Position numbers and translations under genes: made by a program | Notes under the pieces: generated by a model | What the model was told of the DNA's origin: nothing | The model's database searches: none | Seen by the model: only the letters and a program-made list of their open reading frames with translations | Source: Eledone cirrhosa | Lineage: Eukaryota | Reading direction: 5' to 3' | Length of the DNA stretch: 64,000 nucleotides | Assembly: GCA_964016885.1 (NCBI GenBank) | Contig: OZ024746.1 | Span: forward strand, 66,030,001 to 66,094,000 | In this document: positions 38,070-46,772 of the stretch, in pieces | Position numbering within the stretch: the first letter of the stretch is position 1 | How the letters are laid out: the number at the start of each line of letters is the position of its first letter

Positions 38070-39334
38070 CCCTCGATAATAATGAAAAAATATATGTACT
38101 CTATAAGAAATTTAGATACCTCATGAACAAATCATCTCCCGAAATGAGGGCGAGAAACATTGGACATTGCAATAGATAGATTGTTGACTACTGAATTGAG
38201 AACAGGATGAATAATTATTTCTACTTTTGGTACAAAGCCAGAAAAACATGGCGAATAATAGTTGGAGCTGAAGTTATGATATTAAGCTTTTCGAAAATGT
38301 ATTAACAACAATAAAAAAATATACCAGGGCATTAATAAAAGGCATTAACAAAAAAATATACCCCAGCATTATATTCCTCACAACGTATAGATCTGCAAAG
38401 AACAACAATCCTGAGCAAGACATTTTAAATAAATGAGAAGAGCTCTATACAACACACACACATACACATATATATATATATATATATATATATGTGTGTG
38501 TGTGTGTGTGTGTGTGTGTGTGTGTGTGTGTGTGCATGTGCGTGTGTGTTTGTCTGACTGCGTGTGTGTATTTGCGTAGTAATATAATTATTACGAGTGA
38601 TATTACAACGTATTTATTCATCAAATAAATATCCTGAGCAAACAATGACTATAAAACCTGATTGAAATCGTAATACACGTGTAAAAACTACGGTAATAAA
38701 CACACGATTGTTCGTAATAAGCTTCATAATTGTTTGAACTGATTTCACTCTTCCCTCTATAATCTCGATTGAAGTGTTATTTCAATGATTGATTCGATTG
38801 ACTGTGAAATGTCAAGCAATAAATATTATTTATGTACAATGAATTCAGCATTAATTTTATCATATTCATCATATCAGTTAATCTTCAATTATTTTACTGC
38901 CATATTTTTGATTTGAGTTCGTACTAATATCTACAAGAGAGATTGAGTGTAGGTAAATATGAGAAGGACTTACACGTTTCTCGCTTTTCCCTGCAGTCTA
39001 TATATATCAAACTAACCTTTTAAGTCCGCCATTCTTTGATCAATCCGAAATGAATAGCTCCATCAGTTTCTGTCAAAATAGTACACAAACCTTTCCTTGT
39101 GGATCAATGCCTAGCTATATGCATTTCCATATGTGTACAGAAGATCCGATCTTAGATGGCTAAATAGATTTCTACATATATATATATATGTATATATATA
39201 TATATATATATATATATATAGGAACGAGTAGGACACCGACGGCTGAGCTCAAACCGTTTAGACGGCTAATTCTGGACTAATTCTTATATACTGGTGGTAT
39301 ATATATATATATATATATAGTTTTAATATAGAAG

Positions 39335-39385
39335 AGATTCTACAGGACTAGAACTGTTTCATTCATTAGAAATCATCAGGAATCT
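39335..39385 (-). ncRNA. Type I hammerhead ribozyme
   Basis: agattc-CTGATGA-t-ttc-taat-gaa-t-GAAACAG-ttctagtc-CTGTA-gaatct, with all core bases present. Confidence 0.9.
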
Positions 39386-39894
39386 GGGTATCAAAAAATA
39401 AATATGGTATTTATAGGTCTCTACAAGTGGTAGGAGAGGGTGGGGAGTGGGATGGGTGCAAGTCATTGGTTGATAGAAAAGGGAATTCATTAAAAGCTAA
39501 TTCTACAAGGCTATAGTTTATTTTTATATTTATTTATATTTATTTATGTTTTTAGAGTAACAAAGGCAGACAGAATTCTATAAACAGGTTCCGGATGGCA
39601 TACCATTCCTTGTCAATAAGTTTCTCTTAAGCTAACAGATGTCTATAAAGTCAGTGGGGGGGGTCAGTCATGGTCGATAGAATTAAAGAAAAGGGAGATT
39701 CTTTAAAAGCTAAAGTCATTAAGGTTCTACTAAGTGACAAAGGTCTAGAGAATTCTGCAGACAGATTCAAAATACTGAGTGCATATCTTACTATTATCTT
39801 CGAACTTCTCTTAAACTAATCAACTATATGCCAAAAATCAACAGACACATTCACAAAAAAACAAAAAAACAAAAAAACCAAAAAACACATACTC

Positions 39895-42095
39895 ACTCAC
39901 ACACTTATGCGCAACCATAAACACACACACAAACACATATACACACATAAAAACACACACACATATATAAAAAATATATAAATATATATAAATATAAATA
40001 TATATTCATGTACACGCACATACATACACACATACATACATACATATACAATACATATACACATATACATATATATATATATATATATATATATATATAT
40101 ATATATATATATACACATATACATACATATATACATATACACAGATACACACACACACACACACATATATATATATATATATATATATATATATATATAT
40201 ATATATATATATACACACAGATACACACACACATACACATACATACACACACACACATATATATATATATATATATATATACAAACACATATATATATAT
40301 ATATATATACACATATACATATATACATATATATAAACACATACATATATATATATATATATATATATATATATATATATATACACACATATATATACAT
40401 ATATATATATATACATATATATATATATATATATATATATATATATATATACATACACACACATATATATATATATAAATACATATATACACATATATAT
40501 ATATCCATACATATACAAACATACACATACATACACAGACCTATACATAAATATACAAATATATATACAGACATATAACGCGCATATACACACACACACA
40601 TACATATACACGTATATATACATACATATATATATATATATATATATATATACATATATACATGTATATACACATATACACATACACATATATATATACA
40701 CATATACACATACACATACACATATACATATATATACACACACGCGCATACACACATACACACACCCACACACAAAATATATATACACACTCTCTCTCTC
40801 ACGCACATATATATATATATATATATACACACACACATACATACACATACATATATATATATATACATATATATACATATATATATATATATATATACAC
40901 ACATATATACATCTATACACATATACACATACATATATATATACACACACATACACACACATATACACACATATATACATACATACACACATACACAAAC
41001 ACAGACACATACAAATACACATATATATACACACATATATATACACACATACACACACACACATACATACATATATATATATATATATATATATATATAT
41101 ATACATACACATATATATACATATATATATATATATATATATATACATACATACATACACACATATATACATACATACACACACATACATACACACGTAC
41201 ACATACATACAAATACACATATATACATATATACACACATACACACATATATATATATATATATATATATATATATATATACACACATACACATACATAT
41301 ACATACATATACACACACACACATACACACATATATACATATATACATACAAATATACACACACACACATACATATATATATATATATATATATATATAT
41401 ACATATATATATATATACATACATATATATATATATATATATATATATATATATATATATATATATATATATATATATATATACACACCTGCCCACACAA
41501 CCATATACATATATATATACATACATATATATATATATATATACACATATATATATATATATATATATATATATATATATATATATATATATATATACGC
41601 ACACACACACGCGCACACACATACATACATACACACACACATACATACACACATACACACACCCACATGTATGTGTGTGTGTGTATATATATATATATAT
41701 ATATATATATATACACACACACACATACATATACACATATATATACACATATACACGCACATACACACATACACATACATATACATAAACATACATACAT
41801 ACATACATACATACAAACACATATATACACATATATACATATCTATATATATATATATATATATATATATATATATATATATATATATATATATATATAC
41901 ATACATATACACAAACATATACATACATATACATACATAAATATCCACACATAAAACACATATACACACAAACATATATATATACACATATATATATATA
42001 TATATATATATATATATATATATATATATATATATATATACGCACACACACACATACACATATACACATATACAAACAGATATATACACATACAA
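39895..42095. repeat. (CA)/(TA)/(CATA) microsatellite mosaic inside the PLE 3' UTR
   Basis: The same interrupted pattern recurs at 45100-45500 and, inverted, at 45600-46130. Confidence 0.9.
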
Positions 42096-42272
42096 GTAAA
42101 TAGGTACTCAATAAATATACGCAAATACGCAGGCACATAAAGACACCTCTACAGGCAGAAAATGTAGATACGAAAGAGGTACTCACATAACCATAGTGGC
42201 CGTGTTTCAGGTTGAGGAGGGGTGGGGGTAGGGTGGGGAGGAGGTATAGGGGCCAATAGGGGGAGGTCGTTT

Positions 42273-44595: not shown

Positions 44596-44617
44596 GGGTA
44601 TCAAAAAATAAATAAGG

Positions 44618-44679
44618 TATTTATAGGTCTCTACAAGTGGTAGGAGAGGGTGGGGAGTGGGATGGGTGCAGGTCATTGG
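44618..44679 (-). promoter_or_regulatory. Putative Pol II promoter in the pseudo-LTR (CCAAT plus TATAAATA)
   Basis: CCAAT at 44679-44675 and TATAAATA at 44625-44618, 30 nt before HHR stem I. The same spacing is conserved in the diverged 25-kb family. Confidence 0.6.
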
Positions 44680-46613
44680 TTGATAGAAAAGGGAATTCAT
44701 TAAAAGCTAATTCTACAAGGCTATAGTTTATTTTTATTTTTATTTATATTTATTTATGTTTTTAGAGTAACAAAGGCAGACAGAATTCTATAAACAGGTT
44801 CCGGATGGCATACCATTCCTTGTCAATAAGTTTCTCTTAAGCTAACAGATGTCTATAAAGTCAGTGGGGGGTCAGTCAGGGTCGATAGAATTAAAGAAAA
44901 GGGAGATTCTTTAAAAGCTAAAGTCATTAAGGTTCTACTAAGTGACAAAGGTCTAGAGAATTCTGCAGACAGATTCAAAATACTGAGTGCATATCTTACT
45001 ATTATCTTCGAACTTCTCTTAAACTAATCAACTATATGCCAAAAATCAACAGACACATTCACAAAAAAAACAAAAATCAAAAAAACAAAAAAACACATAC
45101 TCACTCACACACTTATGCGCAACCATAAACACACACACAAACACATATACACACATAAAAACACACACACATATATAAAAAATATATAAATATATATAAA
45201 TATAAATATATATTCATGTACACGCACATACATACACACATACATACATACATACATATACAATACATATACACATATACATATATATATATATATATAT
45301 ATATATATATATATATATATATATATATATATATATACACATATACATACATATATACATATACACAGATGCAAACACACACACACACACATATATATAT
45401 ATATATATATATATATATATATATACACACAGATACACACACACATACACATACATACACACACACACATACATAGATACACAAGTAAATACACTCACAC
45501 GCATACATACAAACACGAGTATACTCAGCAATGAGTTCTGCGCATTCCTTGGGATCGTCAGTGATCTGGCTTGTGTGGGGATTGCGAAGAGGACCAACTT
45601 GTGTTTTTATATATATGTATATATGTATATGTGTATATATATATATATATATATATATATATATGTGTTTGTATATATATATATATATATATATGTGTGT
45701 GTGTGTGTATGTGTGTATAAATATTTATACATATGTATACTCGTGTTTGTATGTATGCGTGTGAGTGTATTTACTTGTGTATCTACGTATGTGTGTGTGT
45801 GTATGTATGTGTATGTGTGTGTGTATCTGTGTGTATATATATATATATATATATATATATATATGTGTGTGTGTGTGTGTGTGTATCTGTGTATATGTAT
45901 ATATGTATGTATATGTGTATATATATATATATATATATATATATGTATATGTGTATATGTATTGTATATGTATGTATGTATGTATGTGTGTATGTATGTG
46001 CGTGTACATGAATATATATTTATATTTATATATATTTATATATTTTTTATATATGTGTGTGTGTTTTTATGTGTGTATATGTGTTTGTGTGTGTGTTTAT
46101 GGTTGCGCATAAGTGTGTGAGTGAGTATGTGTTTTTTTGTTTTTTTGTGAATGTGTCTGTTGATTTTTGGCATATAGTTGATTAGTTTAAGAGAAGTTCG
46201 AAGATAATAGTAAGATATGCACTCAGTATTTTGAATCTGTCTGCAGAATTCTCTAGACCTTTGTCACGTAGTAGAACCTTAATGACTTTAGCTTTTAAAG
46301 AATCTCCCTTTTCTTTAATTCTATCGACCCTGACTGACCCCCCACTGACTTTATAGACATCTGTTAGCTTAAGAGAAACTTATTGACAAGGAATGGTATG
46401 CCATCCGGAACCTGTTTATAGAATTCTGTCTGCCTTTGTTACTCTAAAAACATAAATAAATATAAATAAAAATAAAAATAAACTATAGCCTTGTAGAATT
46501 AGCTTTTAATGAATTCCCTTTTCTATCAACCAATGACCTGCACCGATCCCACTCCCCACCCTCTCCTACCACTTGTAGAGACCTATAAATACCATATTTA
46601 TTTTTTGATACCC

Positions 46614-46664
46614 AGATTCCTGATGATTTCTAATGAATGAAACAGTTCTAGTCCTGTAGAATCT
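46614..46664 (+). ncRNA. Type I hammerhead ribozyme
   Basis: Identical copy; predicted cleavage after GUA at 46658. Confidence 0.9.
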
Positions 46665-46772
46665 CTTCTATATTAAAACTGTTATACTCTGCCATGTATT
46701 GAGTACCTTACTTACTGTGGTTACCTCCGATTCAACCCGGAATAACGTATATATATATATATATATATATAT

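What the first reader, a model, noticed from the sequence alone, without database searches (positions are those of the whole stretch)
39319..46749. Apparently intact, young Hydra-clade-like PLE with three identical, complete hammerheads
Seen: an uninterrupted 713-aa RT-GIY-YIG ORF with a CxCx5C linker and C-terminal CxxC...CxH, and near-identical pseudo-LTRs. The HHR has a 6-bp stem I and a real stem III (ACAG/CUGU around a CUAG-centred loop) rather than the usual 1-bp minimal form. The clade assignment rests on recalled motif descriptions, not a tree. Inference: the element may be active. Cleavage at both same-strand HHRs would release a ~5.2-kb unit RNA with 5'-OH and cyclic-phosphate ends that could be circularised.
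Basis: partly seen in the sequence, partly recalled or inferred. Interest (0 to 1): 0.75.

Follow-up and report, generated by a model that had tools for sequence, protein, structure and literature searches.

The report
Young Hydra-clade Penelope retrotransposon copy
This is an intact, recent copy of a known kind of jumping gene (a Hydra-clade Penelope-like element) from a family with thousands of hammerhead-bearing pieces in this genome, and the ends of those pieces suggest it is likely copied from RNA that its ribozyme has not cut.

Summary
Observation confirmed: an open 713-aa RT/GIY-YIG ORF, three identical hammerhead (HHR) motifs and pseudo-LTRs 0.75% apart, inserted in (TA)n. Every published Hydra-clade protein motif is present; no tree with named Hydra references was possible. 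The family is young and large: 9,744 HHR matches against 113 ORF starts, with purifying selection on shared variants. A 4-bp stem III is normal for Hydra HHRs; only the 8-nt loop differs. Copy ends argue against cut-and-circle as the main route. Insertions begin at two fixed sites, 22 and about 90 nt past the cleavage site. Of 100 arms, 33 stop at the first bases of the hammerhead, 30 nt below a conserved TATA box; none stop at the cleavage site. Full-length copies read through that point (0 of 46 stop). One allele found only three times genome-wide lies in the 3' repeat alone of three sister insertions, so their template likely held two different repeats: longer than one unit, not a monomer circle. 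Expression, cleavage and polymorphism are untested. The scan reported similar run-off palindromes on other DNA.

The parts
39319..39850 (-). 3' pseudo-LTR, unique part; ends at the short terminus T1, 22 nt past the HHR cleavage site, followed by (TA)n
   Evidence: T1 junction occurs 4,031 times exactly in the genome
39335..39385 (-). Hammerhead motif, 3' copy; predicted cleavage between 39341 and 39340
   Evidence: fold evaluation
39851..42085 (-). Internal microsatellite-rich tract (TA/TG/TATG), about 2.2 kb; part of the element
   Evidence: present in 27 of 27 copies with both repeats, 0.7-3.4 kb long
42086..42272 (-). Unique 3' untranslated stretch after the ORF
   Evidence: shared by sister copies at 93-98%
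42273..44414 (-). 713-aa ORF: telomerase-like RT, CxCx5C linker, C-terminal GIY-YIG endonuclease without CCHH (Hydra type)
   Evidence: AlphaFold pLDDT 93.6; best Foldseek match TERT 3du5_A, E 3.6e-9; Pfam GIY-YIG weak, E 0.0016, under cut-off
44415..44528 (-). Leader; its first 67-69 nt (44528 to about 44460) are the 'tail' ending at the long terminus T2
   Evidence: T2 junction with (TA)n 5,153 exact matches, read-through 335
44545..44595 (-). Hammerhead motif, 5' copy; its first base (44595) is the predicted transcription start; predicted cleavage between 44551 and 44550
   Evidence: arm ends pile up here
44618..44679 (-). Predicted external RNA polymerase II promoter: CCAAT at about -84 (44679-44675), TATAAATA at -30 (44625-44618)
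   Evidence: both boxes kept in an older subfamily about 72% identical; function untested
44529..45524 (-). 5' pseudo-LTR: unique part 44529-45060 plus microsatellite part
45523..45599 (-). 77-nt insert from ORF2 of a young multi-copy LINE, between the two arms; likely a template switch
   Evidence: 100% identical to 39 of 39 other places listed; lies in an APE-RT frame
45608..46749 (+). Inverted 5'-truncated arm ending at T2 (with tail), followed by (TA)n
46614..46664 (+). Hammerhead motif, inverted copy

Best explanation
This is an intact recent copy of a Hydra-clade Penelope-like retrotransposon, likely inserted when its protein nicked both strands of a (TA)n target and likely primed reverse transcription at two fixed internal sites on one RNA that the hammerhead had likely not cut. 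Shown in sequence: every paired insertion ends at T1 (22 nt past the cleavage site) on one side and T2 (about 90 nt past it) on the other. Short arms stop at the first bases of the hammerhead, 30 nt below a TATA box. Long arms run through that point. Inferred: (1) the main transcript starts at the first base of the hammerhead, so priming just downstream runs off the RNA's 5' end and leaves ~200-bp promoterless palindromes, the commonest product; (2) full-length copies like this one come from longer-than-unit RNA that holds two repeats, such as read-through of tandem copies; (3) the hammerhead is conserved but probably folds poorly in context and would act as a minor, dimer- or protein-assisted step. 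Clade identity is about 0.95 likely; the confidence below is for the mechanism.
For: Clade motifs: RWR, DKT, CxCx5C, CxxC/CxH, no CCHH. Tree groups it with 21 like-motif homologues, apart from 17 DKG-type PLEs, SH-aLRT 100. Two termini: 4,031 and 5,153 exact junctions. 63 of 63 T2 arms with an adjacent inverted partner have a partner ending at T1, and 30 of 30 arm pairs share alleles. Run-off edge: 33 of 100 T2 arms and 32 of 63 partner arms end at HHR bases -1 to +3; 0 of 100 end at the three positions around the cut. The same edge holds in an older subfamily with a different stem I (27 of 30 arms, read by eye) and shows as loose ends at 39383-39385 in raw reads of two other samples. TATAAAT lies 27-31 nt before the HHR core in 4,548 places, with diverged spacers. 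Long arms: 0 of 46 stop at the edge vs 33 of 65 short arms, Fisher p 3e-10. One allele occurs 3 times genome-wide, each in the 3' repeat of a sister insertion whose other arm or arms lack it; the three have different flanks. Published support: two internal RT starts, both strands extended, HHR cleavage dispensable in the anole Poseidon element (PMC11167929). Predicted HHR fold costs 7.2 kcal/mol once the tail is present.
Against: No RNA data: the start site, the promoter and the uncut template are inferred from DNA ends only. The two-repeat template rests on one nucleotide in three insertions; only 1 of 55 discordant sites is shared between insertions. Minor alleles agree between the two repeats of a copy in 86 of 96 cases, so repeats are regenerated from one template often, as a circle would do. 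Three long arms start at HHR -6 to -2, and two long arms start next to the cleavage site. 37 of 100 T2 arms had no adjacent inverted partner. 25 of 63 pairs have inner ends within 2 nt of each other, which a fold-back also explains. The only functionally mapped Penelope promoter is internal and TATA-less (PMC2377424). Compensatory stem I changes say the hammerhead fold is under selection.
Confidence: 0.6

Rival explanations
1. One reading: both same-strand hammerheads cut, the 5.2-kb unit is ligated into a circle, and rolling-circle reverse transcription makes full-length copies with matching repeats. Short palindromes come from uncut linear RNA on the side.
For: Long arms never stop at the presumed RNA start (0 of 46). 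Repeats within a copy differ by 0.54% (21 copies) against 2.7% between copies (351 pairs). Minor alleles concordant 86 of 96. HHR core and loop III conserved, with compensatory stem I changes. Proposed in PMC4209133.
Against: A monomer circle has one copy of each repeat position, yet three sister insertions keep one allele in the 3' repeat and the other in the 5' or inverted arm. HHR fold predicted unfavourable in context. HHR cleavage not needed in vitro for the anole element. A dimeric circle is not excluded.
Confidence: 0.22
2. One cDNA is primed at T2, folds back on itself at its end and copies itself to T1; the endonuclease then resolves the hairpin. Full-length copies arise by end-to-end template jumps on linear RNA.
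For: Arms share alleles in 30 of 30 pairs. Inner ends lie within 2 nt in 25 of 63 pairs, also away from the main edge. The LINE insert shows that the RT switches templates.
Against: Fold-back predicts the T1 arm is never the longer one, but it is longer by 3 nt or more in 23 of 63 pairs and by over 5 kb in this window. Same-molecule jumps would copy the 3' repeat twice. Jumps would have to fail half the time at first pass and never at second.
Confidence: 0.12
3. The edge at the hammerhead's first base is a 3' splice site or a polymerase stall, not a transcription start.
For: A T-rich tract and CAG precede the edge in the young family. In D. virilis Penelope the intron ends at helix I (PMC4209133).
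Against: Several older copies have GG instead of AG there, and older-subfamily arms with GG show the same edge. I saw no upstream exon joined to the edge in the 100 upstream junctions printed (by eye). TATA and CCAAT boxes are kept at promoter spacing.
Confidence: 0.06

Closest known systems
Hydra clade of C-terminal EN+ Penelope-like elements (Craig et al. 2021, PMC8557442), e.g. Hydra-1_Obim, Penelope-1_NV, Hydra-1_Amil, Penelope-13_HM
   Same: Single RT-GIY-YIG ORF of about 710 aa; RW[K/R], DKT, CxCx5C, CxxC and CxH, no CCHH; (TA)n target; HHR in the repeat with a CUGAUGAU...UGAA core and a 3-4 bp stem III; inverted 5'-truncated arm; tail at one end.
   Different: Unit 4.7-6.4 kb in 26 of 27 copies instead of under 3 kb, because of an internal microsatellite tract; tail 67-69 nt instead of 30-40; loop III 8 nt instead of 1-3; thousands of copies. 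Its HHR differs from that listed for Hydra-1_oBim, so it is a different family.
PAc / Poseidon_Ac of Anolis carolinensis (Frangieh et al. 2024, PMC11167929)
   Same: Two internal RT start sites just downstream of the HHR that bound the tail; AT-rich target; both strands extended; uncut RNA as the main template.
   Different: Other clade; shown in vitro there, inferred from genomic ends here. In the parts I read, that paper does not map a transcription start, run-off palindromes or strict T1/T2 pairing.
Penelope of Drosophila virilis (Schostak et al. 2008, PMC2377424)
   Same: Transcription starts inside the pseudo-LTR, near the HHR.
   Different: Its promoter is internal, TATA-less and overlaps an intron. 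Here a TATA and a CCAAT box lie upstream of the predicted start, and no intron was found.
Animal non-LTR retrozymes (bioRxiv 10.64898/2026.07.22.740005)
   Same: The family has a head-to-tail array of about 1.1-kb HHR-bearing units derived from the pseudo-LTR.
   Different: The window's element is autonomous and coding; the array hangs on an ORF-bearing copy; circular RNA is not shown.

Membership tests
Hydra-clade PLE | Single ORF with RT and C-terminal GIY-YIG endonuclease | tested here: met
   713-aa ORF; IVY...YIG at 585-604, R613, E672, N685 conserved; TERT is the top fold match
Hydra-clade PLE | RWK motif near the N-terminus | tested here: met
   RWR variant (RIRWR from residue 36); R-x-RW[KR] in 106 of 120 homologues; RW[KR]A in 0 of 51 DKG-type PLEs
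Hydra-clade PLE | DKG changed to DKT | tested here: met
   SDKT at 115; no DKG
Hydra-clade PLE | CxCx5C linker | tested here: met
   residues 566-574; 114 of 120 homologues, 0 of 51 DKG-type PLEs
Hydra-clade PLE | CCHH absent; CxxC and CxH flanking the conserved E and N | tested here: met
   C666, C669, C694, H696 conserved in at least 90% of homologues; no conserved cysteine pair between GIY and YIG
Hydra-clade PLE | HHR motif in the pseudo-LTR | tested here: met
   same core form as File S2 entries; compensatory stem I changes
Hydra-clade PLE | Insertion in (TA)n | tested here: met
   both ends here; thousands of T1 and T2 junctions with TATAT
Hydra-clade PLE | Generally short (under 3 kb) | tested here: not met
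   unit 5.2 kb here, 3.7-6.4 kb in 27 copies; the excess is microsatellite. The paper gives length as a general trait, not a diagnostic one.
Hydra-clade PLE | Placement in the RT tree with named Hydra, Neptune, Nematis, Poseidon and Naiad references | tested here: inconclusive
   Quick tree with unnamed database proteins only: groups with like-motif proteins, apart from one DKG-type set. Published Hydra proteins were compared by eye only.
Self-cleaving type I hammerhead ribozyme | Conserved core CUGANGA / GAAA / NUH with three stems | tested here: met
   core intact, GUA triplet; U-U in place of the usual G10.1-C11.1 pair
Self-cleaving type I hammerhead ribozyme | Cleaves in vitro or in vivo | not testable with these tools
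   needs a cleavage assay; folding predicts competing hairpins
Currently active transposon | Transcripts and insertion polymorphism | tested here: inconclusive
   the flank was not covered by the reads laid; expression could not be examined
Non-LTR retrozyme | Non-coding tandem HHR units that make circular RNA | tested here: not met
   the window's element is coding; only a sister locus has such an array

The most novel reading that the evidence does not exclude
This Hydra family shows the whole Penelope copying cycle in its genomic footprints. A TATA/CCAAT promoter outside the transcript starts RNA at the first base of the hammerhead. Paired priming at two fixed sites turns most of these RNAs into dead-end 200-bp palindromes. 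Only longer-than-unit, uncut RNA yields new full-length copies, so the hammerhead is not the maker of the template but a conserved 5' switch, able to remove the cap 45 nt into the message.
Probability: 0.45. Interest if true: 0.68.

Novelty: new member of a known kind. Interest (0 to 1): 0.45.

Why it matters
The element itself is an expected member of a described clade. Its value is as a test system. What the hammerhead does in Penelope-like elements is stated as unclear in PMC8557442, and only a Poseidon-clade protein has been reconstituted in the papers I read. This family offers many open ORFs, thousands of near-identical insertion ends and exact predictions (start at 44595, priming at 44529 and about 44460, cut at 44551/44550). 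The circle-versus-uncut-RNA question can therefore be settled with RACE, RNase R sequencing and one in vitro assay. It also shows a Hydra family reaching thousands of copies.

Tried and rejected
Rfam: no hammerhead match in the window or the 251-nt stretch (only 150 of 228 rows shown); the U-U core is probably outside the models. Pfam: no RT family, GIY-YIG under cut-off. Sequencing runs: no RNA holder listed, which says nothing about expression. Insertion polymorphism: the left flank was skipped as repeat in all 4 runs laid, so untested. Homodimer prediction of residues 1-480: no verdict, not used. Tree with published references: left out; the careful tree did not finish and the quick one was used. 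Naming homologues: 4 of the listed cluster members carried a name, only one cluster an organism. A cap-derived extra G at the edge: looked at by eye, confounded by microhomology, dropped. Loss of a short motif in the 3' tract as a second lineage marker: rejected, the deletions in the window and its closest sister differ and 9 of 27 copies lack it. Stem-I fold-back of the cDNA as cause of the edge: rejected, no peak of partner ends just after stem I. One search timed out and was redone. The script machine was lost; flanks were then read directly, and ORF alleles unique to the three sisters were not counted. Earlier-findings search by sequence found nothing.
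Full report
Conventions. The element reads on the minus strand. R positions count along the 646 nt upstream of the ATG in the 5' copy (window position = 45061 - R). R466 is the first base of hammerhead stem I, the predicted cut is after R510, T1 is R532 and T2 is about R600.

Observation. The ORF runs from 44414 to 42273 and gives 713 aa without a stop. Three identical hammerhead motifs lie at 39335-39385 (-), 44545-44595 (-) and 46614-46664 (+); the two same-strand cut sites are 5,210 nt apart. 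The layout is (TA)n, 3' repeat ending at T1, microsatellite tract, ORF, leader, 5' repeat, a 77-nt foreign insert, an inverted arm ending at T2, (TA)n. The unique parts of the repeats differ at 3-5 of 532 positions.

Clade. I read the outline, section 11, keyword passages and part 2 plus keyword hits of the supplement of Craig et al. 2021 (PMC8557442). The protein has each listed Hydra trait: RW[K/R], DKT, CxCx5C, CxxC and CxH around the conserved E and N, no CCHH. The 120 listed homologues (of 1,335 found, 38-53% identical) share them; 51 long DKG-type PLEs retrieved with another fragment of the window lack RW[KR]A, CxCx5C and the C-terminal CxH. A quick tree of 39 rows (22 and 17 picked from these sets) separates the two groups with SH-aLRT 100; it has no named references. 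By eye the protein follows the published Hydra-1_Obim sequence through the RT motifs, but the two hammerheads differ, so this is another family. The model is confident (pLDDT 93.6) and its best structural match is TERT.

Hammerhead. File S2 shows that Hydra hammerheads already have the CUGAUGAU...UGAA core and 3-4 bp stems III, four of them ACAG/CUGU, with loops of 1-3 nt. What differs here is the 8-nt loop, kept in 252 of 266 motif occurrences in the stored loci (some loci overlap), while loop II varies. An older subfamily has stem I GGCUUC/GAAGCC for AGAUUC/GAAUCU, two compensatory changes. The fold is weak: -5.3 kcal/mol alone, and 4.0 and 7.2 kcal/mol above the free ensemble when extended to T1 and T2. 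The stem III region pairs far better between two molecules (-14.2) than within one (-2.1). A monomer is possible, a dimer more likely; cleavage is untested.

Age and size. The genome holds 9,744 matches to the hammerhead but 113 to the ORF start. Of the 30 best copies, 21 (the window included) have the open 713-aa frame. Of 24 further full-ORF copies taken in list order, 6 are open for 711 aa or more. Among 27 copies with both repeats, variants shared by two or more copies have dN/dS 0.10 and private ones 0.52 (p 9e-7), as expected when several functional sources spread. Repeats within a copy differ by 0.54% (21 copies with enough overlap) against 2.7% between copies. The window copy has 10 private codon changes, 7 amino-acid-changing, one in a column at least 90% conserved. 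It is recent but not the youngest, and whether it works now is unknown.

Two fixed outer ends. Exact junctions with (TA)n number 4,031 at T1 and 5,153 at T2; read-through forms number 2,216 and 335 (exact patterns miss variant alleles). I examined all of the first 100 T2 sites listed on contig 1. Sixty-three have an adjacent inverted arm, and all 63 partners end at T1 (R517-538); 37 have none within 80 nt. Arms agree in alleles in 30 of 30 pairs scored. This matches the two internal RT starts that bound the tail in the anole element (PMC11167929, parts 1-2 of 4 read), where both strands are extended and hammerhead cleavage is not needed.

One inner edge. Of the 100 T2 arms, 33 end at R465-468, 16 at R469-480, 4 at R450-464, 28 run further upstream, 2 end at R509 (probably one duplicated locus) and none at R510-512. 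Partner arms end at R465-468 in 32 of 63 and at R508-512 in 2. In an older subfamily 27 of 30 arms (four pairs share an insertion; pattern requires the core) end in stem I (by eye). Raw reads of two other samples show a depth step and loose ends at 39383-39385 (reduced-representation reads, duplicates possible). TATAAATA starts 30 nt above R466, and the box is kept at similar spacing in 4,548 places across subfamilies whose spacers differ; a CCAAT box at -84 is also kept. I infer a transcription start at the first base of the hammerhead and cDNAs running off uncut RNA. A splice acceptor is less likely because some older copies lack the AG. The mapped D. virilis promoter is internal and TATA-less (PMC2377424, keyword passages only), so this arrangement would differ.

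Full-length copies use another template. Among ORF-bearing long arms, 29 of 33 in the first set and 17 of 24 in the second reach the edge; none stop at R465-468, and three stop at R460-464. Against 33 of 65 short arms the difference is p 3e-10, or 7e-8 with the wider window. One marker speaks against a monomer circle for this lineage. The window and its two closest copies, on three contigs with different flanks, all carry T at R390 in the 3' repeat and C in the 5' or inverted arm. That allele, in its 37-nt context, occurs exactly three times in the genome. The template must have held two different repeats and extended upstream of the 5' hammerhead. This is one site of 55 discordant ones, and minor alleles agree within copies in 86 of 96 cases, so repeats are also regenerated from one template. 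Circles in other lineages, or dimeric circles, are not excluded. The circle idea itself is published (PMC4209133, parts 1-2 of 4 read).

Novelty. A new family in a known clade, with the known inverted arm and one-sided tail. I did not find the TATA-placed start, the run-off palindromes or the two-repeat marker in print (paper searches; open-access library only; bioRxiv supplements closed). Of the retrozyme preprint I read part 1 of 5. Unreviewed notes of this scan already propose run-off palindromes and twin priming on other DNA; I reached that reading before seeing them, and they are not independent support. I did not identify the host.

Verdict. Real, intact, recent and correctly assigned; the ribozyme is less unusual than thought, and cut-and-circle is not the best-supported route. 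Interest 0.45, mainly because the family makes the open question of hammerhead function directly testable.

Noticed in passing
window 45523-45599: A 77-nt piece of ORF2 of a young, high-copy LINE (CR1-like motifs, label recalled) sits between the two arms, identical to many genomic copies; likely a template switch onto another element's RNA.
   Followed up: partly
window about 25030-25570: Inverted pair of an older Hydra subfamily with the same T1/T2 layout, TATA and CCAAT boxes, and compensatory stem I changes; 2,368 exact core matches in the genome.
   Followed up: partly
L031-L032 (G000:C1:83.68-83.69 Mb): Head-to-tail array of 12 hammerhead-bearing repeat-plus-tail units of about 1.03-1.11 kb downstream of an ORF-bearing copy; resembles a retrozyme array.
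   Followed up: partly
window 6833-8705 (-): Decayed copy of a more distant Hydra-type element, about 35% identical in protein.
   Followed up: no
window 18053-18808 (+): RT fragment of a canonical DKG-type Penelope-like element; used only to retrieve an outgroup set.
   Followed up: partly
window 56700-61200 (-): Broken LINE with endonuclease and RT pieces (L1/Tx1-like, label recalled).
   Followed up: no
L217, L221, L237, L238, L241, L250, L253: Several arms end at about R666 or R711-713, inside the start of the ORF; possibly minor further priming sites.
   Followed up: no
window 44460-44528 (-): The tail folds into a bulged hairpin, and a second predicted hairpin ending at T1 would sequester the cleavage site. 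Covariation not tested.
   Followed up: partly
window 42150-45050: Runs labelled as two other organisms hold pieces of the family at about 98-99% identity (for example 401 nt with 6 differences, 288 nt with 4).
   Followed up: no
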